Shown: positions 1 to 55,514 of the stretch, piece by piece
Numbering within the stretch: the first letter of the stretch is position 1
How the letters are laid out: each line of letters opens with the position of its first letter
Origin: Eledone cirrhosa
Taxonomy: Eukaryota
DNA: 64,000 nt
Assembly (NCBI GenBank): GCA_964016885.1
Contig: OZ024747.1
Coordinates: forward strand, 35,650,001 to 35,714,000
Direction: 5' to 3'
Program-made: the position numbers and the translations under genes
The notes under the pieces: model-generated
Told to the model about the DNA's origin: nothing
Databases searched by the model: none
The model's input: the letters and a program-made list of their open reading frames with translations, nothing else

Positions 1-430
1 ATCGTTTTCGGTACGCCGGGCCAACTAACTCACTCGATATGCAAATTAGGCTGCTCAGCCGTTAATATGCATAAGGAAAGCATATACTTCAAACGTTCAA
101 TCAACTGACAGGAAGGTATACGGTGCTGATGACAGCTAATAAGCTAGAAACTAGTTAATCGTTCAAAAGGGCAACGATGGTGGCCGAACAGTGTACGGCT
201 AATAATTCAGGCTGTTTGTTTATAAACAAACCGAGTATTATTATAAATGTTCGATAAACCCATACGTACATATATATATATGTGCATGTATGTATGTATA
301 GACGTACTACTGTACGTCTGTATATATATATGTATGTACGTATACATACTTATATATATATATATATATATATATACGTATACATACTTATATATGCATA
401 TATACATATATGCATATATACACGAAGGCA
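1..430 (+). mobile_element. Non-coding HHR repeat family A (~440-nt unit), copy cut by the window edge
   Basis: Homologous to 6207-7000, 9032-9256(-) and 51460-52160. HHR at 121-161: cggtg CTGATGA cagct-aata-agcta GAAA ctagt t aatcg. Confidence 0.8.
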
Positions 431-6160: not shown

Positions 6161-6996
6161 TAATCGGCCGGGTGCAACGATAACGATAAACGGAAAAAAG
6201 TAAACGATTAACCCACTCGATATGCAAATTAGGCTGCTCGGCCGTTAATATGCATAAGGAAAGTATATACTTTCAGACGTTCAATCATCTGGCAGGAAAC
6301 TATACGTTGCCGACGATAAGTAATAAGCATGAAACTAGTACAGCGTTCCTTTGTCAGTGTTGAACAAACGAGCAACGATGGTTGCTAGACACTGCGGCTT
6401 AATACGGGATGTTTTTTTACAAACACACCGAGCACTATAATAAATGTTCGGTGAATCCATACGTACATATATATATATATATATATGTGTGCATGTATGT
6501 ATATATATATATATACATACTACTGTACGTCTGTATACATATATGTATGTACGTATACATACTTATATTTAAGTAACATCCGTATTAAGAGTGGGAAATT
6601 AAATTTCGTTTCATTTATTCCGTTTATCGTTTTCGGTGCACCCGGCCGATTACCCCACTCGATATACAAATTAGGCTGCTCAGCCGTTAACATGCATAAG
6701 GAAAGTATATACTTTCAGGCGTTCAATCATCTGGCAGGAAGGTATCAGTTGCTGACGATAGCTAATAATCTTGAAACTAGTACTGCGTTCCTTTGTCAGT
6801 GTTGAACAAACGAGCAAGGATGGTTGCTAACACTACGGCTTAATACGGTATGTTTGTTTACAAACACACCTGGCAATATAATAAATGTTCGGTGAATCCA
6901 TACGTACATATATATATATGTGTGCTTGTATGTATATACATATGTATATACATACTACTGTACGTCTGTCTACATATATGTATGTACGTATACATA

Positions 6997-7352: not shown

Positions 7353-7593
<241 letters not shown>

Positions 7594-7773
7594 TAATTTA
7601 ATATATCTACTAACATAAGCGCACAGATGTACGCTAATGCCAGCAAATACACAGGTTATGTCATAGTACCTAGGTGGTTCAATGCAGGAGGATGCAGAAC
7701 AATAATATAAAAGACGTAAAATAAGAAAATTTAAAAAAAAAATTAAAAAAAAATTAACTTACTTAAATTTTCA

Positions 7774-7853
7774 CTCAAACTAATTAGTTTCTGCAATGGG
7801 ATAAAGACAGTTACGTAATGAACTGTTGAGAATTTCATTGCGTCATCAGGGAG
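7774..7853 (-). ncRNA. Type I hammerhead ribozyme, family B unit 1
   Basis: ctcc CTGATGA c gcaatg...acagtt/aactgt...cattgc a GAAAC TAATTA GTT tgag. Confidence 0.85.
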
Positions 7854-8312
7854 ATCTATTCTCAGCCAAGTCTCCAGGCAATGCGCGGACACTGGGGTCT
7901 CATATAAAAATAATAATAATTCGGTAAATGGAACAGCTATTGAGGACTGGATTCCAGGCACTGAACATTCTCACTGCCACTGGTCATATGGCCGATTCTA
8001 AAGAATCAATCACGTGACACAGAGGCTAGTCAGTAGGAATGGGATGGTAAGATGACAGACGCCTACTAACACCCCCCAAAAATTTAGAAGTGGTTTTGGC
8101 AGGTTTGCTCGACAAATCAGTGATTTGGAGATAAATATAGATAATTTAATATATCTACTAACATAAGCGCACAGATGTACGCTAATGCCAGCAAATACAC
8201 AGGTTATGTCATAGTACCTAGGTGGTTCAATGCAGGAGGATGCAGAACAATAATATATAAGACGTAAAATAAGAAAATTTAAAAAAAATTAACTTACTTA
8301 CTTAAATTTTCA

Positions 8313-8392
8313 CTCCAACTAATTAGTTTCTACAATGGGATAACGACAGTTAAGTAATGAACTGTTGAGAATTTCATTGCGTCATCAGGTAG
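8313..8392 (-). ncRNA. Type I hammerhead ribozyme, family B unit 2
   Basis: ctac CTGATGA c gcaatg...cattgt a GAAAC TAATTA GTT ggag. Confidence 0.85.
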
Positions 8393-8451
8393 ATCTATTC
8401 TCAGCCAAGTCTCCAGGCAATGCGCGGACACTGGGGACTCATATAAAAATA

Positions 8452-8637
8452 ATAATTGTTTCTACTTTAGGCACAAAGCCAGCAATTACCCAGTGCATTA
8501 CTGGTACTTTATTTTATCGACCCCGTAAGGATGAAAGGCAAAGTCAACCTCGGCGGGATTTGAACTCAGATCGTAAAGGGACGTAACTACGCTGGAAAGC
8601 ATGGTGTCCGACCCTCCACCGATACTGCCAATCCACT
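8452..8637 (-). mobile_element. Full-length Meta-core tRNA SINE inserted in family B unit 2
   Basis: Minus strand: tggcagtatcgg (A-box-like), gagttcaaatccc (B box), gcctttcatccttacggggtcgataaaataaagtaccag, (att)n tail. Absent from unit 1. Confidence 0.9.
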
Positions 8638-9031
8638 TCGGTAAATGGAACAGCTATCGAGGACTGGATTCCAGGCACTGAAAATTCTCAATGCCACTGG
8701 TCATATGGCCGATTCTAAAGAATCAATCACGTGATACAGAGGCTAGTCAGTAGGAATGGGATGGTAAGATGACAGACGCCTACTAACACCCCCCAAAAAT
8801 TTAGAAGTGGTTTTGGCAGGTTTGCTCGACAAATCAGTGATTTGGAGATAAATATAGATAATTTAATATATCTACTAACATAAGCGCACAGATGTACGCT
8901 AATGCCAGCAAATACACAGGTTATGTCATAGTACCTAGGTGGTTCAATGCAGGAGGATGCAGAACAATAATATAAAAGACGTAAAATAAGAAAGTTTAAA
9001 AAAAAAATTTAAAAAAAATTAACTTACTTAA

Positions 9032-9072
9032 ATACAGACGTACATTAGTATGTATATATATATACATACATG

Positions 9073-9109
<37 letters not shown>

Positions 9110-9256
9110 TCCTATATATATATACGTATGGATTCACCGAACATTTCTTATAATGCTCGGCGTGTTTGTAAACAAACATCGCGAATTAAGCCGTACAGTG
9201 TCTAGCAACCATCGTTGCTCATTTGTTCAACACTGACAAATGAACACTGTACTAGT
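9032..9256 (-). mobile_element. Family A partial copy starting at the HHR helix III palindrome
   Basis: Reverse complement matches about 6334-6535; homology stops at actagt 9251-9256. Confidence 0.8.
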
Positions 9257-11087: not shown

Positions 11088-11122
11088 TCTTCACGTTTCG
11101 GACGTAGTCCTTCGTCAGAAGA
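11088..11122 (-). ncRNA. Minimal hammerhead motif in a solo pLTR-like fragment (G at the cleavage site)
   Basis: tctt CTGACGA a ggac-tac-gtcc GAAACGT G aaga. Confidence 0.75.
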
Positions 11123-16068: not shown

Positions 16069-16785
16069 GTATGAACACGCCAGACAAAGACATGATCGGT
16101 ATATAGACAACATAGAAATCAAAATAATATTTAAGCATAGACATAATTAACAGGTAGGCTAATCGGAGAAGCAAGTGTGATAGAACCAAGAAAACCAAAG
16201 TTAAACAGAAAGAACGAATGGAAAAACAACAACCTTACCCCAAAATACAATACTGACCTAAGGCAAATATAAATAACTAAATATATACACAATTACAATA
16301 ACAGCAAACACATATAAACATACACTAGTGAAAAAAGATAGAATACGAAAATAAAAAAAAACATACACTCCATCACGAACACCCACACACCAAACATTAA
16401 ACACACACACCAAATAATGCGCAAACCGAGACAAGAATAAATAAATTAATTAATTAAATAAAAATGGCGTAGGCATTACAATACAATGGGAGGAAACATA
16501 ATAGTACCACTGATGATGTAACAGGTGTGCGATGAAAGAACTTTGATAGACTATATACATATATATATTTATATCTGTATTTTTAACCGTTGGTCAATCT
16601 ATGATACACGTTGATTGCCAGATAAATTAACTATGGAGATATAAAAGATAGAGAAGCGAAAACTTATCCAAACCATACATCGCGTGTGTTCTGTTATGAT
16701 TTCTGAGAATATGATAACAATATCACCCTCCCCAAGTACAACATATGTTTCGACACACGATTTCATATTAAAAAAAACCTTGATA

Positions 16786-17187: not shown

Positions 17188-17373
17188 TAATAATTGTTTC
17201 TACTTTAGGCACAAGGCCAGCAATTACCCAGTGCTTACTGGTACTTTATTTTATCGACCCCGTAAGGATGAAAGGCAAAGTCAACCTCGGCGGGATTAGA
17301 ACTCAGATCGTAAAGGGACGTAACTATGCTGGAGAGCATGGCGTCCGACCCTCTACCGATACTGCCAATCCAC
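17188..17373 (-). mobile_element. Full-length Meta-core tRNA SINE
   Basis: Near-identical to 8452-8637. Confidence 0.9.
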
Positions 17374-17389
17374 CAATATACATATAACG

Positions 17390-18580
17390 TCACATAGGGA
17401 TATACAAAAAGAAGGAGGAACGTGTATGCGTATGAGATAGTACACGGGAGAAGTATGAGATATACACATCGGCCTGTATACGGAAAATATATGTGTTACA
17501 AAATGGAATACGTGGAGAGTATGGAATCTCTATTGAAAAGATACACATGCATGGGGTGCGTGTACCGGCCATACTGGAGTATTACACTGTGGTTGAGGTA
17601 TATTATCCTATAGGTGTAATGCATTTAACTGAAAGTCAGTGGAATCCGGGTCAACCTGTCCCGGCTCATGCGATGTTCTTGCCTATGGTGACGTACAGAG
17701 ACGGTATTGCATCCTATGTTATTACGGTTTACCCCACGGGGCATATATAGTCATCGGGGTATGGTGTCTGATCCCTTGAATCCGTTTCACTGGTCTGGTC
17801 GGCGTACGCTCCCCCGCATGCATTCAGCCTGGATTTCCCGGTGTATTCCATGTGGAGAGTGTGCACCTTCTCTGGTGCCTGCACGTCATGATTATTTCCG
17901 ATTTCAGGTTGACCGTATCATCCTTCAGTCTGACTATGTCCATGGCCTCGTAAAGGCATAGCCTACACTTTCTATTACCAGCCGAGAATGCATTCGCGTG
18001 CCGAACGATACTCCAGTCAAGGGCATACGGCGTGCCTTTGTCTTTCAAGTCGCATACCAGGTCCGCCAACCTAGTAGAGTGCCCCTGACTCCAGTCCTTG
18101 AAAGAGTTCGTGTGGTTATACATCCGCAATTTAAAGGTTGTGGATGTTGCGCCGATATAGGTGCGCTTTATATTGTGCGTTCTAACCACACATTTATATA
18201 CCAGGCCGTTCGTCAGGCATCATCCCTGCAAGAGGCACTGCGTGTCTGCTCTGCAGTTGCACGTTCTGTAGTTATGTTGTTCATTTCGGACGCCTGGCCA
18301 TTGATCTGCTAGGGCCCTCTCCCGATTCTCAGGGTGTTGTTCCGCTGATACGGTGGTCTCCTCTCCGCCAACCTTTCCCACCCGGTGTTGGATTGTATCG
18401 TCTTCCGCGGCGAGGCGGCCGCCGCGAGGGCTGGGTTGTGGTTGGAAGACCGATCCGCGAGGGACCCTCCGTGCTATGATGGACGGTCATTAAGCCGCTG
18501 CGATTGACGATCGAGGTTCCCCATCTTCGCCGCGTTAGTTTTGGCCATGTAGTCGGCCATGTTAGGTGCTGTGGAGAAGA
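17390..18580 (-). mobile_element. PLE remnant: long linker + GIY-YIG endonuclease + 3' region
   Basis: CNCRADTQCLLQG*CLTNGLVYKCVV...TYIGATSTTFKLRMYNHTNSF...KCRLCLYEA...NLKSEIIMTCRH. Confidence 0.85.
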
Positions 18581-21079: not shown

Positions 21080-21998
21080 TATTGGCAGGGGTGCTCCATG
21101 GAGATACATTGGCTCCCTATCTTTTTATCATCGTAGTGGACTATTTTATGCGCCTTGCACTGGAGAAACACAAGGACTCTGGCTTTACTGTAACAACGGA
21201 TCAGAGCAGGAGAGTTAAGGCGAAAAAGATATCGTATGCGGAATTTGCCGACCACATAGTTTTGCCAAACACAGTGAAGGGAGAAGAGTATTTGATGCAG
21301 GAGGTTGAGACCGTGTCGATGAGTGTTGGGGTTAGAATGAATGAGACTAAGACAAATTATTTGGTAGGGAATGTTGAGAAGCCAGAGGCGATAACTAATG
21401 TAGGCGGGAAGTCGCTAGAATTGGTTGAGGACTTCCTGTATTTGGGAGCAAGGATTGGGAATACGGAAGATGATGTGGTAGAGAGGAAGGGAAAAGCCTG
21501 GGCGCCGTACCACAGCTTGAGATCAGTGTGGAAGTCGGACCTTCATTAGGACCTGAAGATCCGCTTCTTCATTGCTGTAGTGGAGTATGTACTACTGTAC
21601 GGTTTGAGAATTGGACACTGACCAATAAACTCACTCAGATGGTGGATGGGTGCTACACGAGAATGCTGAGGAAGGCTCTGAACATTAATCAGTATATACT
21701 GAGGATGAAAAACTCAGAGTTTCATGAGAGCCGCCCAAAAGTCGGTTCAAAAGCGACACAGCGGAGACTGAGGTTAGCTGGACACGTTCACCGACACCCA
21801 GAGTTGACACTGCACTCAGTGCTCCTGTGGGAGCCCCTGCATGGATACACTGGAAGAAGAAGACAAAGGTTAACATATGTTGATGCCCTGAGGACAGACA
21901 CTGGTCTGTTGGGGACGCTAGACATGGCAGCGCTAATGAGGGACAGAGACCGCTGGAGAGAACTCGTCCATGGGTCTCGGGAATTTTACCCGCCCTAC
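21080..21998 (+). pseudogene. 5'-truncated RTE-clade LINE (RT domain to C-terminus)
   Basis: GVLHGDTLAPYLFIIVVD, FADH, KTNYL, DFLYLG, LLYG.ENWTLT, RRLRLAGHVHR, DRDRWR; contains a stop and frameshifts; embedded in (TA)n. Confidence 0.92.
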
Positions 21999-22044
21999 AT
22001 ATATATATATATATATATAAAATAAGGAGTTGACGGATCCAGCA

Positions 22045-27249: not shown

Positions 27250-27257
<8 letters not shown>

Positions 27258-28842
27258 ATATTTGGGGAGGGTCATATTTGCGTAATATTGCCAGAATTAA
27301 TAACAGAACACACTCACTGTTTGGTTGGTTTTCGCTTCTCGCTGTCTTTTATATATATATATCTGCGATCTAACTTACTCGGTCCTCAATGTTGCCATTG
27401 ACTGACAGGCGGTCAAAAATAATACAGATACAATATAGACACAAACACATATATATAGTTTACATAATTTACATAAATCTTTCGTTGCACATCTGCAACA
27501 TCGTCAGTGGTGTTATATTCATTGTTCCTCCTGTTGTGTTGTATGTCTACGCCATTTTTTTTTTTTGTTCAGTCTGTCTATATATTTATTTATTTATTTG
27601 CTTGTTTGTTTATCTTATTTTATTTTGTCTTCTTTGCGCATGCGTTTGCGTGTGTGTATAGTGTTATGTGTGATGTGTGACTAGTGTGTATAGTGTTGTG
27701 TCTGCTGGGTGACTAGTGTGTGTTTATGTGCTTGTGTATGTATTTATTTATCTTATTTTATTTAATTTTATTTACTTATTTATACTTCTCTTAGGTCAGT
27801 GTTGTTTTTTGGGGTGTTGTTGTTGTTCCACTCATTCTTTCTGTTTAGCTTTGGTCTTCTAATTTCTATTTCACTGGCCTCTCTGATTTGCCTATCTGCT
27901 GGGTCATTCCTATGTTTAGATATTATTCTAATTTCTATGTTGTCTATGTTACCGTCGTGTTGTTGTCTAGCATGTTCGTATAGTACTGACCCGTTTTTTC
28001 GTCCTTTTAGTTCCCCCCAGTGTTGGTCTATCCTTTCACCTATGCTACGAGCTGTCTCACCTATGTATGTTGTTGTCATGTTTCTGCAAGTACCCTCTGT
28101 ACATCTTATGCTATAGACTACGTTTCTGGTTTTACAGTTTATCCGGGGGTTCACCTTACATATGATACATTTCCTATTAGTACAGTGGGTTTTCTTAAAA
28201 GGGTAGGTTTTGCTGATCAGGGATTTTATGGTGGTTCCTGGCTTTTCTACCACCTTTATTTTTAAGTGGGTCTTTCTCAGGGCCTTTCTACACTGGTTAG
28301 CTAATTTCCCTCCAGGGGTGGCATCCACAAACATGACACTCTGATATCTCTGGTTGTCGTACCATGATGTGGCCTTCCCTATCTTATGTCTAGCCCTATC
28401 TAAGCTATTCCATGATTTGCTCCTGTATAGTGGGCAAATTCCTTTCATGTCCAGTTCTATGAGGGTCTTATACTTTTCCATGGCTCCTTCGTATACTCTG
28501 ACTCTGTCTCTTTGGTTGTAGCCAGAGAACTGCATGCGGTTGATGAAGTGTTGGATGTGTCCTTCCATTTCTGTTGGGTCGCACATGCTGGACACATTCT
28601 TCATCACTCGTACCAAATCTGCGATCAGAATATTAAACTTAGCACTACTGGACATTGCTGAGTTTTTGAGTATCAGGTATTTGGAGGCCATGGGTTTAGC
28701 ATAGTGTGAGTGGAGAATTTGGGCTCTCTCGTCTATAGTGTTAATCCAGAGTTCTGTGTCTAATACAGGTAGTCTATTGTTAGGGTGTTTGGAAGGGAAG
28801 TCTATAGTTACAGTTATACTCTGGTGTATGGAATTAGCGATT

Positions 28843-28843
<1 letters not shown>
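27250..28843 (-). mobile_element. 5'-truncated PLE: RT C-terminus/thumb + GIY-YIG + pLTR
   Basis: DFPSKHPNNRLPVLDTELW, YAKPMAS, NVVYSIRC...TYIGETARSIGERIDQH, LNRKNEW. HHR 27470-27511: CTGACGA t gttgca-gatg-tgcaac GAAAGATTTA. Confidence 0.93.
27780..28691 (-). CDS. Uninterrupted 303-aa C-terminal part of a PLE RT/GIY-YIG protein
   Basis: ORF track; Cys linker CTNRKCIIC..C and VVY..YIG motif. Confidence 0.85.
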   Translation of the reverse strand: MASKYLILKNSAMSSSAKFNILIADLVRVMKNVSSMCDPTEMEGHIQHFINRMQFSGYNQRDRVRVYEGAMEKYKTLIELDMKGICPLYRSKSWNSLDRARHKIGKATSWYDNQRYQSVMFVDATPGGKLANQCRKALRKTHLKIKVVEKPGTTIKSLISKTYPFKKTHCTNRKCIICKVNPRINCKTRNVVYSIRCTEGTCRNMTTTYIGETARSIGERIDQHWGELKGRKNGSVLYEHARQQHDGNIDNIEIRIISKHRNDPADRQIREASEIEIRRPKLNRKNEWNNNNTPKNNTDLREV

Positions 28844-30783
<1,940 letters not shown>

Positions 30784-30787
30784 CACT

Positions 30788-32387
30788 CTTAAAGTAGTAC
30801 ACCTTCTAGACGTAACTCTTAATTTAAATACCGGACTGATACGACCCTTCCACAACATAAATGAGAAGCTTACCTATATCAATCTTAACTCAAACCACCC
30901 ACTTTCCATGATCAAATCGGTTTTCCGTAGTATTTCTCTTAGAATCTCTCGCCTATCGTCTGAATGAGATTTTCTGTGAACATGCCGAATACTATAATAA
31001 TCCATTAAGGAATGCCGACCACTTGGATACAATAGAATACATTGATAAGAATCTCCATAACACACATAGCTCTACACGAAATCAAAGAATACGTAACCGG
31101 GGTACATAAATACAAGCGCACACACAAGACATACTAATAATAGAAAAGCATCACCAAATAAATCACGTTGTTGAAAGTATATGTGGTATAATCCCATTTT
31201 TAATGCTTCGATTAGTATAAAACTATCTCTTTCATTCTTTAAGTTAATCAACAAGCATTTCCCTAGTTCCCATAAATACAGTAAAATTCTGAACTCTAAG
31301 ACTATTAAGCTATCATACTCCACTACACAAAACCTTGAAGTATACATTAAAAAAAACTTAACTTAAAGCAATTAATCAACGCTACAAAACAAAATATTTT
31401 AATAACAGATGTGCATAACGTAGTATCGGCCTCCCAACCAGTAAATGGGAGACGGGTATTACACAACCCACATGTACTGTTATCCCAACCTATCCATGGA
31501 ATACCTGCTACCCACAATAAAAACTGTAACTGCCACCTATCTGAAAGATGTCGATTGAAGAATAAATGTCTAAAGTCCAACATCGTTTATCAATGCACTG
31601 TTGAATTGAACGACCTGAAATGGTATTACATCGGGTCTACCACTACCTTCATTAAATTTCGCTGGTATCGTCATCGATTCTCAATTAAACATCATAATCA
31701 CCGTTTTGTGACCACGCTCGCCAACAAGACCTGGCAACTCCGTGAACGCAACCAACAGTTCACCGTGAAATGGTATATACTTTCCAGCGCTAGTGCATAT
31801 CGGAGTGGATTGAAGTACTGCAGGTTATGTAACCTTGAACTCTTTTACATCTTAAAATCCAAAAATAAATTACTAAATGACAGAATCGAACGATCATTAT
31901 ACTGCAACCTCAAACAGAAGGCTAAATTCTCTCACTATTAAATAACTTAACATTCGAACCCGTAACTATAACACTGCTTTCTCGTTAACTACTTTCTCTC
32001 AATAACAACTTCTTAACTGTATCCCCCACACTACAAAACAATACCCGGCTTATCACTATAAATGGATACTTAAGTGCAATTTGTAGCCTACAACTATGAA
32101 CTCAATATACACCTATCCCACAGCTTTCGTCTGCCACTCTCTATCTCTATCTATTCCTCTCTCTCCATCACCCCTCTCTCTCTCTCTCTATCTATCTCTC
32201 GCCCTCGATCCACCTCCCTCCCCTCCACATCTATGAACCTGCCCTTTGTGACAATAAATAATTCCAACCTTAACTATCAACGCATCGCTTAAGGTTGTCG
32301 CTTTAAGAGTAACCAGTATAATAAAACCCTACCACAACATTTTGATTAAGATATCTACAAACCACTCTGTCCCATTTCTCCAGCCCC

Positions 32388-32456
<69 letters not shown>

Positions 32457-33420
32457 CTTTTATTTCTTCCTTTTCTACTCTATCTTCCCCCAATAACCTC
32501 ACTTAAGGGTATTTACATTGTACATTTTAACCATTCTGCTCTGATGATACAGTGGTCACAGCATTTGATAATTGAGTTTGCAAATAGTTATAAATTTGCA
32601 CATAGCATAACTAGGCTGTATAACCACCGTGGAAACATTTGTAAGCACACATAATAAATTACCTTTTTATGATGTCTACCTGTTATTATTCATTCTTTAT
32701 CTACACTCCGGAATACAGAAGGATCAGGAACTAAGTTTCTTCAACTATTCTTCCATAACTCGTTGAGTAACCCCTCACCGTACGTCAACCATATCCAGTG
32801 TAGTAATTAACCATTACTACATCTAGGATAATCCTATACCTAATAATCGCCTCCTGCACAGTTGAGCAACCACACCGACATACGGCAGTAATGTGGAGAG
32901 GCATCATATAGGTATGTCACTTAAAAACACACCTTTACCTAACAGAAGGGAATATATTCTTGGTATGATTCAACGCAATAATGGCTTTATTCGGCGTGTA
33001 CGATGGAAGGCTTTCCATTTCGATAAGGGACACGCCAGTCACTCGTCTGAATCATATGGTTTTAAATCATGTAAAAACCCACCCACAAACCCCCATCTCG
33101 ATGCTTTCGAACAAGACTTAATGAATACGACCATGAATATTAAATTTACCAAACATAGAAGTAATGAGCTGCAGAGCAACATGAAAGCACTACTCCGAAG
33201 ACTGCAAAATATCAATGGAATTGTTGTGAAAGCTGATAAACCTCTAACGTGTATACCATGGGAATCGATACATACAACAGCTTCGTATGCAAAGAACTAC
33301 ACAAGAAATATAGAAAAACAAGTGTAACTACGCTAGCAAACATAAACAACGAGGCATACAAGGTAGTGAAGAATCTCAAGATAGACGATAGAACAGAGCC
33401 GATTATACCCCCCCCCCCCC
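30788..33420 (+). mobile_element. Partial-tandem PLE: 3' half of ORF, pLTR, then 5' start of the next ORF
   Basis: LLDVTLNL..RPFH, WYNPIF, KHFPSSHKY, CNCHLSERC, IVYQC..YYIGST, CRLCNLE; then SLKNTPLP..RRVRWKAF..YGFKS..KADK. Confidence 0.92.
32537..32647 (+). ncRNA. Type I hammerhead ribozyme with extended helix II in pLTR
   Basis: tgct CTGATGA tacagtggt/accaccgtg, acagc/gctgt, tgcaaat/atttgca, GAAAC attt GTA agca. Confidence 0.88.
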
Positions 33421-35199: not shown

Positions 35200-36680
35200 T
35201 GCTATGTCTTACATGCTACGTTGGGCGGGCCCGTACTGACGGTCTGCCATGACCTTCAATCGGTGGTTCCTGCACTGGCGGTAATCGGCATCCAGGTCAG
35301 CTCGGCCATGTCGGAGGTGGTGAATGTCAGCCTCGATGTAGCAAGCTTTGCAGCATCCGTATTGGATGTGCGGTCCATTCTCCGCCAGATTCAGGTGACT
35401 CCCAAAGAGGATGTCCTAATCCTCGGGTCATCGATCCATCCACCGGCCATCGGCTCCACCATCAGGTCCATGCTTCAACAGCTCCAGACTCCTACGAGCC
35501 GACTGGGCTTGATTGACGGCCACCCAGCGATCTTTCTGCTGAGGAACTGCTTCGCCATGCCGAAGCTCCTCTATACACTCCGCAGCGCTTCGTGCTACCC
35601 CGAGACATCTCTCCTCGCTGACCTCGATACTTGTATCCAAGCTGCAGCCGAGGTGATAAGCAACGTCAAGTTTGACGACAATGGGAGGCAACAGGCCGCT
35701 TTACCTGTCAGGTATGGCGGCCTTGGCCTCCGTTGCCCGATCTCACTAGCTTTGCCGGTGTATATTTCGTCGGTAACCTCGCGCCGCGTCCTCGTCAGGA
35801 GGGATTTTCAAAACACAACAGAACCTTCTGTGTTCAGACAACGTGAGGCTGCCTGTGAGACGTGGGACCGGCTGGGACTTAGCCCAGTAGACGTGCCTCC
35901 TCCTTCTCCCCCTGTTGACGACGTCAAGTCCCCCCAACGCACTTGGGATGCCATCCAGTGCAGCCTGGCCTCAGACGGGTTCACGCGCCAGCTAGTTCAG
36001 CACCGCTTTGCTTGTTTTCGTGCGGCCTCCAAAACCCATATTGGTGCCTAGCTCCATGCCCTTCCATCCTTCTTCACTGGCACGCAGCTACACAAGCATA
36101 ACTTGCGCATCCGCGTTTCACTGAGGCTCGGCCTCCGGATCTGCCAGCCACACCAATGTCGTTGCGGTTCCACCGTGGACTCTTTCGGCCCCCACCCGCT
36201 TTCCTGTCGCCACAGTGCCTGCTGCATTCCACGCCATGATGCCCTTAACAAGGTCATTAAGCATGGCTTGGACGCTGTAGGCTTCCCTTCCCAGCTCGAG
36301 CCAGTGGGGCTGGATCGAGGGGACGGCAAAAGGCCAGATGGCATGACCACCTTCCCGTTCCGCGGTGGCAAAGCTCTCGTCTGAGATGCCACTTGCACCA
36401 ACATTTTCTGCAGCCACAACCTGGTACAGTCTGCGACTGACACAGGTTCTGCTGCACGTTGGGCTGAGGGAGCCAAACTCCTCAAATACCGGCCGCTCTC
36501 CGACAGATTTGCGGTCGTACCCCTGGCAGTGGAGACTTCTGGTGTCGTCGGCTCGAGGGATACCTCCTTACTCACCACTATAGGCGCTGAGCTGGCCAGC
36601 CGCAGGTCTCCCTTGCCGTCCTCGAGGAGGCGCCTTCTCCATTCTGTCCACTGGGACTGCGGGTGGGCCCCATCGCGTAC
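35200..36680 (+). pseudogene. CRE-like non-LTR retrotransposon, RT C-terminus + CCHC knuckle + restriction-like endonuclease
   Basis: One frame: LPVRYGGLGL, CRCG..DSFGPHPLSC..RHD, RPDG..PFRGGKALV*DATC, E.AKLLKY, PLAVETSG. Both stops fall at expected Trp codons. GC-rich. Confidence 0.88.
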
Positions 36681-39037: not shown

Positions 39038-39073
39038 GGACGACGTTTCGGGCATAAGCCCTTCCTCAGGTGA
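39038..39073 (-). ncRNA. Minimal hammerhead motif in a solo pLTR-like insert (38950-39215)
   Basis: ac CTGAGGA a gggc-ttat-gccc GAAACGTC gt; helix I only 2 bp. Confidence 0.75.
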
Positions 39074-39603: not shown

Positions 39604-41138
<1,535 letters not shown>

Positions 41139-41994: not shown

Positions 41995-43490
41995 CGTTTC
42001 TGAATTTGTTTAGCAAGATTCTTTATCTGAAATCGTGTGTTGAAACCGATATTGTTATACTTTGGGAGGGTCATGTTGCCAATAAGAAACACACGCACCA
42101 GTAGCTTTCACTTCAATTTATTATAATAAATTTATAATAAATTTATAAATTTATTTATAAATTTCTGGTTAGTTGGTTGGTTCCACAACCAGATAGTTGT
42201 TTATATATTGTCATAGTTCTTTCGTCACACACTATGTGACCTCTTCAGTGACTGGGGTTTCCTTTCTTTGTTTTTGTGCCTCTCCTTTGTTCTGTCCTAC
42301 GCCATTTTGTTTCCGTGTGTGTGTTGTGTGCTCAGTCTGCGCATGCGCCACATCCGTGTGTCTGTGTGTGTTTATGTTCATTTATTTATTTGTTTATTTA
42401 CATGTTACTGGTTGGTTGTTTGTTCTATGTGTGTGTGTGTTTTCATTTTGTCCTTAATTGTAAGTTGTGATGTTGCTGTTCCACTCATATTTTCTATTTA
42501 ATTTTGGTTGTAATTCTTTTATGTTTATTGCCTCTGTGATTTGTCTAAACATTGCGTCTTTTCTGTGTGTAGATTCAATTTTTATTTCTATGTTCTCTAA
42601 TTTACCCTTGTGTTCTATTTTAGCATGCTGGTAGAGTACAGATGATTCTTTACTATCTTGAAGGTCTCGCCAGTGTTCATTTATCCGTTCCCCTACACTA
42701 CGAGCTGTCTCACCTATGTACACTATATTTTTGTATATACATTGTCCCTCAGTACATCTTATGCTATACACTACATTTCTAGTTTTACAGTTAATATGGG
42801 GGCTTATTTTACAGGTTATACATTTCTTATCTATACATGAGGGTATTTTAAAAGGGTATGTATTGCTAATATGTGTTTTTACGGAGGTACCTGGTCTTTC
42901 TACTATCTTAATATTGAGTTTATGTTTATCTAGGGCCCTTCTAAATTTGTAAGCTAATTCACCTCTAGGGGTTGTATCGATGAACATTACACTCTGGTAT
43001 TTTTTTGCTATCATACCATGAGTTTATTCTATTAGCCTTGTTCCTAGTTCTTTCTATTCTATTCCAAAATTTGCTCCTATACAAGGGGCAGGTCCCATTT
43101 ATGTCATTATTTACCATTTTTTACATTTGGTTCTGGCTCCTCTATACACTCTTATTTTATCTCTCTGATTGTAGCCAGAGAACTGCATACGGTGGATGAA
43201 GTGTTGTATGTGTCTCTCTAGTTCTTCGGGCTTGCACATGCGGGACACGTTTCTCATCACCCGTACCACATCTGCAATCAGTATGTTGATTTTGGTATGA
43301 TCCGAAACGGCCGAGTTTCGGTGGATCAGATGTTTGGAAGTCATGGGTTTGGCATAATGGGAATGGAGGATTTGTTTTTTGTTATTAATGGTATCTAACC
43401 AGAGCTCTGTGTCTAGTACAGGTAATCGATGGTTGGGGTGTTTACTTGGGTAGTCTATAGTAACTCTAATATTCTGGTGGATGGAGTTAT
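41992..43490 (-). mobile_element. 5'-truncated PLE, paralogue of 27250-28843
   Basis: DYPSKHPNHRLPVLDTELW, NVVYSIRC..VYIGETARSVGERINEH, LNRKYEW; frameshifts present. Confidence 0.93.
42210..42252 (-). ncRNA. Minimal hammerhead ribozyme in pLTR
   Basis: gtca CTGAAGA g gtcaca-tagtg-tgtgac GAAAG aa CTA tgac. Confidence 0.88.
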
Positions 43491-43763
43491 AATGAAATAG
43501 TATGATAGAATATTAAATTCTAAGTGTTAATTGAACAAGTACTTTCATGCTTTCGCAATCTTCAGGTTCATGATATGTGGTGACAGTCGAGTTTGCAATT
43601 TTCAACTGTAATGAGATGGGTAAATTTACTACCTTTTATACATTTTATACAGAGAAAAGTGGCTCCAGAATGCAAAGCCCTGTAGACACACACACACACA
43701 CACATATATATATCTATATATCTATATATATCTATATATATATATCTATATCTATATATATCT

Positions 43764-51462: not shown

Positions 51463-52162
51463 TATGTATGTATACGTACATACATATATGTATACAGACG
51501 TGCATTAGCATGTACATATATACATACAGGCACATATATATATATATATGCACGTAAACTGTATCGTGCATATATATATATGTGTGCCTGTATGTATATA
51601 TATATATACATGCTACTGTACGTCTGTATACATATATGTATGTACGTATATATACATACTTACATTTAAGTAAGTGCCGTACTAAGAGTGAGAAATGAAA
51701 TTTCGTTTCATTCTATTCCATTTATCGTTTTCGGTGCGCCTGGCCGACTGAACTCACTCGATATGCAACTTAGGCTGCTCAGCCGTTAATTTTCATAAGG
51801 AAAGTATATACTTTCGGACGTTCAACCATCTGGCAGAAAGGTATACGGTGCTGACGATAGCTAATAAGCTTGAAACTAGTACATCGTTCCTGTGTCAGTG
51901 TTGAACAAAAAGGTGACGTGGTTGCCTTAACACCGTACGGCGTAATTCAGGCTGTTTGTTTACAAACGAACAAACCGAGCACTATAATAAATGTTCGGTA
52001 AACTGATACGTGCATCTATATATGTGTGCCTGTATGTATATATATACATGCTACTGTACGTCTGTATACATATATGTATGTACGTATACATACATACTTA
52101 CATTTAAGTAAGTGCCGTTCTAAGAGTGAGAAATGAAATTTCGTTTCATTCTATTCCATTTA
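51460..52162 (+). mobile_element. Family A, terminally redundant copy (period 438)
   Basis: tacatttaagtaagtgccgt at 51661 and 52099; short inverted piece at about 51460-51530; between (TA)n tracts. Confidence 0.85.
51846..51886 (+). ncRNA. Intact minimal hammerhead ribozyme, family A
   Basis: cggtg CTGACGA t agct-aata-agct t GAAAC ta GTA catcg. Confidence 0.9.
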
Positions 52163-54951: not shown

Positions 54952-55514
54952 TGCTGCTTGATAATATGTTCTCTATTTATAGATTTTAACATTTCGGGAC
55001 GAATTCTAAGCTTCCCATTAGCCATGACACACTTGAGCTCTTGTGTCCTCAGACCCGAGAAATTAGAATTTACTCGTAGATGCACCACATATTCATTAGA
55101 AGATGTTATAATTAGATCATCAATGTTTCGCTCCAACTTCTGAGGATGCACCTCTCTTCCAAGACAACACCAGACGTGTTGCTGACAGAAGGCGTGAGGC
55201 ATGATTACTTATCAGACATCCCCGAAATGTCTGCAAGAAAACTGCTTGCTGATCTGAAATTTTTATAGCATTATATTCAGAAACTTGCCTTAGTATGATG
55301 ACACAGTTTATCAACAAATACCTCGTTCATGCATAATAACGCAATTTATAGGCATGAACGAACAGGTAAGGATTATCATTATTTTCCGTCTTACGTTAAG
55401 ATATGATTAAAACAATAGTGTTTTCGTCGCATTTACCAATGGACGTCAGATTGTACAATGCTTCATAAATATGGATGACTTAGATGAGAACCTATTCAAA
55501 ATAATTATGCAATA

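What the first reader, a model, noticed from the sequence alone, without database searches (positions are those of the whole stretch)
7591..9031. Family B: second retrozyme-like tandem family (539-nt monomer) with a 12-bp palindromic helix III
Seen: about 2.3 head-to-tail non-coding units; minus-strand hammerheads predicted to cleave at 7778 and 8317; helix III is AACTAATTAGTT, a perfect palindrome. The 5' helix-I strand of unit 1 (ctcc) is perfectly complementary to the 3' strand of unit 2 (ggag), whereas each unit alone has a mismatch. Inference: a strand-swapped double hammerhead would give one perfect active site. Unrelated in sequence to family A.
Basis: partly seen in the sequence, partly recalled or inferred. 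Interest (0 to 1): 0.85.

Follow-up and report, generated by a model that had tools for sequence, protein, structure and literature searches.

The report
Ribozyme repeat copied by Penelope machinery
This is one decayed copy of a young, protein-free repeat that carries a self-cutting-RNA motif and sits in TA microsatellites with two fixed ends, a footprint shared with the Penelope-type jumping genes of the same genome, so it is likely copied by their enzyme, probably from a small RNA circle.

Summary
In detail: 2.3 non-coding units with minus-strand type I hammerheads (cut sites 7778 and 8317, 539 nt apart) and the palindrome AACTAATTAGTT. A 187-nt SINE-like insert and a family-A junction were missed. 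A double hammerhead through the palindrome is predicted for the whole family. The 'one perfect site' is decay: 102 of 112 genomic hammerheads have matched CTCC/GGAG.

The stronger signal is at the ends. Copies sit in (TA)n and start at monomer position 1 or 115. Of 61 two-arm (head-to-head) copies with both ends at these sites, 60 use one of each. The genome's young Neptune-type Penelope element does the same (16 of 16, tail 42-55 nt). Units and arms of one insertion share private variants whatever their rank, junctions are precise, and ends do not pile up at the cut site. This fits a circular monomer template, but does not prove it.

Verdict: a new family of the known animal retrozymes, with a Penelope insertion footprint and a long, structured 114-nt tail. 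Cleavage, circles and the partner enzyme are not shown. This scan noted the same footprint before on other DNA, including this genome.

The parts
7354..7590 (.). (TA)n microsatellite, target of the insertion
   Evidence: 71 of 85 S1/S115 outer ends abut TA-rich flanks by script
7591..8138 (-). Unit 1, 548-nt non-coding monomer (RNA sense = minus strand); outer end = fixed site S1
7591..7704 (-). 114-nt 'tail' between the two fixed ends S1 (7591) and S115 (7705); predicted small hairpin plus long hairpin
   Evidence: unit-2 copy folds at z=-4.4; same fold in most subfamily copies; compensatory pairs
7774..7853 (-). Type I hammerhead 1: CUGAUGA 7849-7843, long helix II with a C.A mismatch at its base, GAAAC, palindrome 7789-7778, predicted cut after GUU at 7778; private mutation in helix I 3' strand at 7777
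8139..8855 (-). Unit 2, interrupted by a later insertion
8313..8392 (-). Hammerhead 2: predicted cut at 8317; private mutations in helix I 5' strand (8390) and at the base of helix II (8332, G-C to G.U)
8450..8636 (+). About 187-nt dispersed SINE-like repeat inserted in unit 2 (SINE label recalled, not tested); it would block read-through of a normal monomer
   Evidence: 96% match to 17188-17373 and further window copies
8856..9033 (-). Partial unit 3 (monomer positions 1-178), ends about 9 nt before a third cut site; 5' end of the insertion
9034..9256 (-). Family-A retrozyme-like copy joined directly to the 5' end; B probably landed in its TA-rich end
40224..41080 (.). Two-arm copy of related subfamily B2 (522-nt period, about 70% identity) with one S1-type and one S115-type end in (TA)n
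27254..28880 (-). Truncated copy of a young autonomous Neptune-type Penelope-like element (candidate enzyme source; partnership not shown)

Best explanation
Family B is a young, non-coding, hammerhead-bearing repeat family with fixed ends in (TA)n, and is likely a non-autonomous retrozyme copied in trans by a Penelope-like (probably Neptune-type) RT-endonuclease from a likely circular monomer RNA. Steps: (1, inferred) a tandem locus is transcribed on the hammerhead strand. (2, predicted) neighbouring hammerheads pair through the 12-nt palindromic helix III, cut as a double hammerhead and release a ~548-nt monomer, whose circle is predicted to keep the ribozyme mostly misfolded. (3, inferred from literature) the monomer is ligated into a circle. 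(4, inferred from end statistics and the in vitro PLE work) the enzyme cuts both strands of (TA)n; one target end primes at site S1 and the other at S115, which flank a 114-nt two-hairpin tail. (5, inferred) each RT runs round the template for 0.1-5 laps, and the two cDNAs are joined head-to-head at short overlaps, or one arm is lost and joined to the target. Shown in sequence: the anatomy, the fixed ends, the one-of-each rule, shared haplotypes within an insertion, and compensatory helices. The window copy is a one-arm S1 insertion that has since decayed.
For: Ends: of 54 distinct family-B sites, 39 are two-arm; 31 are S1+S115, 1 is S1+S1 (one end abuts a LINE-like end, not TA), 0 are S115+S115, and 7 have a non-standard end (31 of 32, p=1.5e-8). 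Further samples: B2, 14 of 24 sites with both ends called, all S1+S115; hammerhead-pattern sample not chosen by ends, 15 of 28, all S1+S115. The genome's Neptune-type element shows tail plus no-tail in 16 of 16 two-arm loci among the 50 loci examined. In vitro, a PLE protein cuts and extends both strands and starts RT at two internal sites that bound the tail (PMC11167929). Template: 70 variants shared by 2 or more units of a site are in all covering units (31 across both arms), against 17 in a subset (12 of them from one locus, L024). 17 site-private variants are fixed in all units at 14 sites. Opposite arms differ equally at matched and unmatched rank (0.0104 vs 0.0106, p=0.93), and 2 of 93 inner ends lie within 5 nt of the cut site (1.9 expected). 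Both arms wrap past the unit boundary at 11 sites. Ribozyme: core intact in 101 of 112 copies; helix II base pair 24-71 takes all four Watson-Crick types across subfamilies; inter-unit helix III p=0.18-1.0 in 9 tandem RNAs, against 0.06 for helix III in a circle.
Against: No partner found: no DNA similarity and no tail-model match above TA-repeat noise (best 37 bits vs 145-158 for family members) to the two Neptune-type families sampled. Their tails are 42-60 nt, not 114-120. The hammerhead is non-canonical (C.A at the base of helix II, GUU site); Rfam does not detect it. In PMC11167929, hammerhead cleavage was dispensable for insertion in vitro, and in the 2026 preprint 8 of 9 retrozyme dimers did not cleave. 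L016 has two rank-matched variants shared by both arms, and L023 has one arm-specific variant; both fit a heterogeneous multimer or two templates. L024 shows that arrays also grow by DNA-level duplication. 13 of 39 arm junctions lie within 15 nt of the same monomer phase (3.4 expected, 0 of 20000 permutations), which this model does not explain by itself. The samples are the best-scoring tens of more than a thousand candidates, and the first search favoured full S1 units. The inner swapped helix I is predicted at only 0.00-0.07.
Confidence: 0.62

Rival explanations
1. Same PLE-driven two-site priming, but the template is an uncleaved linear multimeric transcript; the hammerhead is weak or dispensable, and arrays are kept long and uniform by young source loci and local duplication.
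For: Hammerhead mutants did not affect insertion in vitro (PMC11167929); 8 of 9 Xenopus dimers did not cleave; rank-matched variants in L016 and a two-unit duplication in L024; precise junctions and no end pile-up at the cut site fit this too.
Against: No overall rank effect between arms; private variants fixed in all units at 14 sites; hammerhead core and helix II kept with compensatory changes across subfamilies only 65-90% identical.
Confidence: 0.2
2. The second arm is not a second RNA-primed cDNA but a fold-back (self-primed) copy of the first, which then joins (TA)n at an internal TA-like word; the fixed ends reflect microhomology.
For: 13 of 39 junctions are near-palindromic in phase; 24 of 31 S1+S115 sites have one arm contained in the other; self-priming was proposed for PLE inverted junctions (PMC3846280); S115 lies at ATATATA.
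Against: At L019, L023 and L064 neither arm fits inside the other, by 109-205 nt (four more miss by 1-15 nt). Like-with-like ends should be common if microhomology alone set the second end, yet 60 of 61 are one of each. One-arm copies use either site (8 S1, 6 S115 of 15).
Confidence: 0.12
3. The repeats are the terminal repeats of an unrecognised coding PLE, or a DNA-level satellite or fold-back element that needs no RNA stage.
For: PLE pLTRs carry such hammerheads (PMC4209133); only part of the family was inspected; DNA duplication is seen at L024.
Against: tblastn with a full PLE protein hit 5 of 54 B sites; of these I inspected L042, where the PLE pieces are separated from B by TA repeats, and in no two-arm or tandem copy does a unit run on into an ORF. 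Copies are dispersed over many contigs with variable 5' ends and fixed 3' ends. Two RNA structures are conserved.
Confidence: 0.06

Closest known systems
Animal non-LTR retrozymes (Cervera and de la Pena 2020, PMC7229834; Li, Clavereau, Pollet 2026, bioRxiv 10.64898/2026.07.22.740005)
   Same: Non-coding tandem units with one type I hammerhead each, GC under 45%, dimers to multimers, dispersed; a mismatch at the base of helix II like axolotl HHR_Amex2; proposed PLE dependence and circular RNA intermediate.
   Different: Unit of 548 nt (170-400 nt in the 2020 paper, but within the 51-972 bp of the preprint); long helix II; 12-nt palindromic helix III. The passages I read describe no fixed two-site ends, inverted arms or TA targeting, and here no parent pLTR could be matched.
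EN+ Penelope-like element insertions: pLTR, inverted 5'-truncated copy, one-sided tail, (TA)n bias (Craig et al. 2021 PMC8557442; Arkhipova et al. 2013 PMC3846280)
   Same: Head-to-head arms, a tail on one end only, partial tandems, (TA)n target; the same rule holds in this genome's Neptune-type element.
   Different: No ORF; the whole unit is the repeat; the tail is 114-120 nt and structured, against 30-40 nt in print and 42-60 nt in the local autonomous families.
Poseidon PAc in vitro mechanism (Frangieh et al. 2024, PMC11167929)
   Same: Two internal RT start sites downstream of the hammerhead bounding the tail; AT-rich target; both strands extended.
   Different: There the sites lie in the ORF and are not homologous to the target. 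Here they lie in non-coding RNA, have short TA-like matches to the target, and are seen used one per target end in 60 of 61 copies.
Double (dimeric) hammerheads of PLE repeats (Cervera and de la Pena 2014, PMC4209133; Lunse et al. 2017 recalled, not read)
   Same: Weak, palindromic helix III that pairs between two ribozymes.
   Different: The palindrome is longer (10-12 bp duplex), and there is an extra A before G12 as well as the extra base after A9.

Membership tests
Animal non-LTR retrozyme | Tandem non-coding units, each with a type I hammerhead | tested here: met
Animal non-LTR retrozyme | No LTR-retrotransposon organisation, low GC, dispersed high copy | tested here: met
   GC 37%; 1559 candidates; PBS/PPT not searched separately
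Animal non-LTR retrozyme | Hammerhead self-cleaves | not testable with these tools
   only folding predictions and covariation
Animal non-LTR retrozyme | Expressed as linear and circular monomer RNA | tested here: inconclusive
   no run on record as RNA holds the stretch; genomic signs fit a circle
Animal non-LTR retrozyme | Sequence related to a PLE pLTR (2026 preprint) | tested here: inconclusive
   no match to the two Neptune-type families sampled; other PLE families of the genome not sampled
Type I hammerhead ribozyme | CUGANGA, GAAA, NUH core with helices I-III | tested here: met
   core intact in 101 of 112; helix II covaries; helix III invariant but partly by query design
Type I hammerhead ribozyme | Canonical G10.1-C11.1 directly next to the core; Rfam family match | tested here: not met
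   C.A mismatch precedes the G-C pair; no Rfam hit; so a variant hammerhead
EN+ PLE-type insertion | Inverted 5'-truncated arm and tail on one end only | tested here: met
   60 of 61
EN+ PLE-type insertion | (TA)n target bias as in Neptune/Naiad | tested here: met
Autonomous PLE | RT plus GIY-YIG ORF within the element | tested here: not met
   longest ORF 31 aa; family B is not itself an autonomous PLE

The most novel reading that the evidence does not exclude
Family B records, in hundreds of genomic copies, a twin rolling-circle integration: a dimeric Penelope enzyme holds one small ribozyme-made RNA circle at two sites either side of a 114-nt structured docking domain, primes one strand of a cut (TA)n at each site, and both RTs lap the same circle. 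That one mechanism would explain the tandem pLTRs, inverted arms and one-sided tail of all endonuclease-bearing PLEs, and the non-coding tail would be a portable signal for loading foreign RNA onto the enzyme.
Probability: 0.35. Interest if true: 0.8.

Novelty: new member of a known kind. Interest (0 to 1): 0.5.

Why it matters
How Penelope-like elements make their tandem and inverted insertions is stated to be unresolved (PMC8557442), and the link between animal retrozymes and PLEs rests so far on co-occurrence and pLTR similarity. This family gives mechanistic footprints instead: the retrozyme obeys the same one-end-each rule as a young autonomous PLE in the same genome, and its within-insertion haplotypes lean towards a circular template. 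A 548-nt RNA with a delimited 114-nt tail, a (TA)n target and intact candidate enzymes is a compact system for testing circle versus linear template and two-site priming. The window copy itself is a decayed passenger.

Tried and rejected
Strand-swap complement as a design: rejected as two private mutations. Rfam at gathering over the window and at E up to 10 over one intact unit: nothing. Expression: no RNA holder listed; three guessed-RNA contig runs laid nothing, and one run of unknown type held DNA-like pieces with the tandem joint; no evidence either way. Template jumping between cleaved linear monomers: disfavoured, since junctions across the cut site are precise and inner ends are not enriched there. 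Partner search: two Neptune-type families share no sequence or tail structure with B; a pattern search for shorter-helix relatives gave only more non-coding subfamilies. Pfam gave no family for the 1218-aa PLE protein; it was identified by its YVDD and CX4CX2C/GIY-YIG-type motifs, a weak GIY-YIG hit in the 59%-identical relative and Atlas neighbours; the Neptune label rests on the motif description in PMC8557442, with no tree. The first motif-based end caller gave false S1 calls and was replaced. The helix III probabilities for the window span had an off-by-one index and were redone. RNAalifold on the mixed alignment missed the hammerhead, because several rows carry helix II deletions and helix III is weak. 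Look-ups of earlier findings by place and by sequence were empty.

Full report
Setting. The window lies in a 3.0-Gb animal genome rich in TA microsatellites; its repeats look octopus-like to me (recalled, not tested).

Observation. After a long (TA)n (7354-7590) come units starting at 7591, 8139 and 8856 and ending at 9033. On the minus strand each full unit holds CUGAUGA, a long helix II, GAAAC, the palindrome and GUU. Predicted cuts are at 7778 and 8317, 539 nt apart; start to start is 548. Unit 2 carries a ~187-nt dispersed repeat at about 8450-8636, and the array's 5' end joins a family-A copy. The monomer is non-coding (longest ORF 31 aa) and has no BLASTN similarity to family A. Rfam finds nothing.

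The family. A search of the genome gave 1559 candidates, of which 39 were scored. A second search with a mid-unit piece gave 1486, 40 scored. Merging fetched loci gave 54 distinct sites. Units differ by 1.9% between sites. A related subfamily B2 (522 nt, about 70% identity, 2699 candidates) has a copy at 40224-41080. A hammerhead pattern gave 52 matches against 1 control match and revealed further subfamilies at 65-90% identity.

The ribozyme. So their complementarity is decay. The dimer idea is sound for the family. Helix III is +1.5 kcal/mol as a hairpin and -9.0 as a duplex, and two copies co-fold into a swapped double hammerhead. In 9 tandem RNAs, inter-unit helix III has p=0.18-1.0; the outer swapped helix I is 0.13-0.92 in the intact tandems and 0.0 here, and the inner one is 0.00-0.07. 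In a circle the active fold is about 0.02-0.06 (three loci were skipped by the script). Across 16 aligned copies, 96.8% of cells pair, 14 cells show double changes (3.5 in shuffles, which ignore relatedness), and slid controls pair at 29-49%. Helix III invariance is partly built into the query. The base of helix II is a C.A mismatch and the site is GUU, so activity is uncertain. Palindromic helix III and dimer action are in print for PLE hammerheads (PMC4209133).

The ends. Copies begin at monomer position 1-11 (S1) or 108-132, mostly 115 (S115); 71 of these 85 ends scored as TA-flanked. Of 54 sites, 39 are two arms meeting head to head: 31 S1+S115, 1 S1+S1, 0 S115+S115, 7 with a non-standard end. 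The 15 one-arm sites are 8 S1, 6 S115 and 1 other; the window copy is a one-arm S1. In B2 (24 sites after dropping 6 overlapping or duplicated loci) 14 had both ends called, all one of each. In the pattern sample (28 sites after merging one pair and dropping one duplicate) 15 did, all one of each. The 114 nt between the sites fold strongly (z=-4.4) into two hairpins kept across subfamilies. The whole circle folds at z=-6.2 against 60 shuffles.

The local Penelope elements. Window 27254-28880 belongs to a very young family (150 scored copies at 99% protein identity, open frames up to 1218 aa) with RT, a CX4CX2C linker and a GIY-YIG-type end, Neptune-type by the description in PMC8557442. Among 50 loci examined, 16 distinct two-arm loci (10 picked as opposite-strand pairs, 6 met in passing) all have one tailed and one untailed end in (TA)n; tails are about 42 or 55 nt. 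A second family has a ~60-nt tail. Neither resembles B in sequence or tail structure, so the partner is not identified. PMC11167929 showed that a PLE protein cuts and extends both target strands, is predicted to be a dimer, and starts RT at two internal sites that bound the tail. I read S1 and S115 as those sites (inference).

Template. Within a site, 70 shared variants are in all covering units and 17 in a subset (12 from L024, a later two-unit duplication). 17 site-private variants are fixed in all units, 5 of them across both arms. Rank does not affect the difference between arms (70/6725 vs 66/6246; 30 sites, L024 left out), and inner ends are not enriched at the cut site. Arms reach 5.3 units, and both arms wrap at 11 sites. 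This fits one homogeneous template read repeatedly, most simply a monomer circle, as proposed in PMC4209133 and PMC7229834. Against: two rank-matched variants at L016, an arm-specific variant at L023, and the possibility of young uniform multimers. Unexplained: 13 of 39 junctions join the arms within 15 nt of the same phase (3.4 expected). Fold-back, collision of two RTs on one circle, or joining at local palindromes could each do this. Pure fold-back fails at three sites by 109-205 nt.

What is known. Tandem type I hammerhead repeats are non-LTR retrozymes (PMC7229834), and a 2026 preprint derives them from PLE pLTRs. Inverted arms, one-sided tails and TA bias are known for PLEs (PMC8557442, PMC3846280). 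Five full-text searches and a term look-up in the preprint found no paper that reports the tail or two-site ends in retrozymes. An octopus repeat annotation (PMC13282606) has no occurrence of hammerhead or ribozyme in its main text. What I saw of each paper: preprint, parts 1-3 of 5 (main text); PMC11167929, parts 1-3 of 4 (main text and methods); PMC4209133, parts 1-2 of 4; PMC7229834, PMC8557442, PMC3846280 and PMC13282606, passages only; Lunse 2017, recalled. Earlier AI notes of this scan report the same footprint in other pieces of this genome and in other genomes. My reading was recorded before that look-up, and those notes are not counted as support.

Verdict. A real, young retrozyme family: a new member of a known kind. 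Its main value is the quantified Penelope-type footprint and the haplotype evidence on the template. Odds: PLE-mobilised non-coding element about 0.9; two-site, two-strand priming about 0.75; circular monomer template about 0.6-0.65; active double hammerhead about 0.6. Interest 0.5.

Noticed in passing
window 1-265, 6205-6907, 9034-9256, 51666-52011; L219-L248: Family A also has a palindromic helix III (AACTAG-type), a C.A or U.U mismatch at the base of helix II, and two alternative 3' ends in (TA)n about 55-57 nt apart (by eye): the same PLE tail rule with a shorter tail.
   Followed up: partly
L149 (G000:C28:57247500-57255500); window 27254-28880: Very young Neptune-type PLE: 4136-nt repeating unit, 1218-aa ORF with a long Asn-rich insert, about 38,000 protein candidates genome-wide. 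Its tail has two lengths (about 42 and 55 nt), and its hammerhead looks degenerate in helices I and III.
   Followed up: partly
window 42080-43512; L159-L188: Second Neptune-type family (59% aa identity in the endonuclease region) with a minimal hammerhead and a ~60-nt tail.
   Followed up: partly
L027 junction (about 1183-1240) and L036 right flank: The 3' end of an unrelated LINE-like element (similar to window 21474-22025) sits between the two arms at L027 and directly against an S1 end at L036; possibly a template switch to another RNA.
   Followed up: no
L024 (G000:C5:87934903-87938095): A five-unit arm with ABAB haplotypes, one unit type carrying a dead GAAA-to-GGAA core: most simply a later two-unit duplication, though a dimer circle is not excluded.
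   Followed up: partly
window 11096-11118, 16510-16537, 30578-30619, 35765-35798, 39046-39069, 39782-40046, 54992-55227: Further hammerhead-like cores of other families, two of them as inverted pairs (39782/40005, 54992/55140); the window holds several distinct ribozyme-bearing repeat families.
   Followed up: no
window 17824-18219, 31351-31941, 32866-33327: Fragments that look like another PLE clade by their GIY-YIG-type motifs (recalled; no significant Pfam hit).
   Followed up: no
L090-L092 (G000:C1:349.32-349.37 Mb) and L201/L202: Identical insertions repeated about 25 kb and 133 kb apart: segmental duplications or assembly duplicates, dropped before counts.
   Followed up: partly
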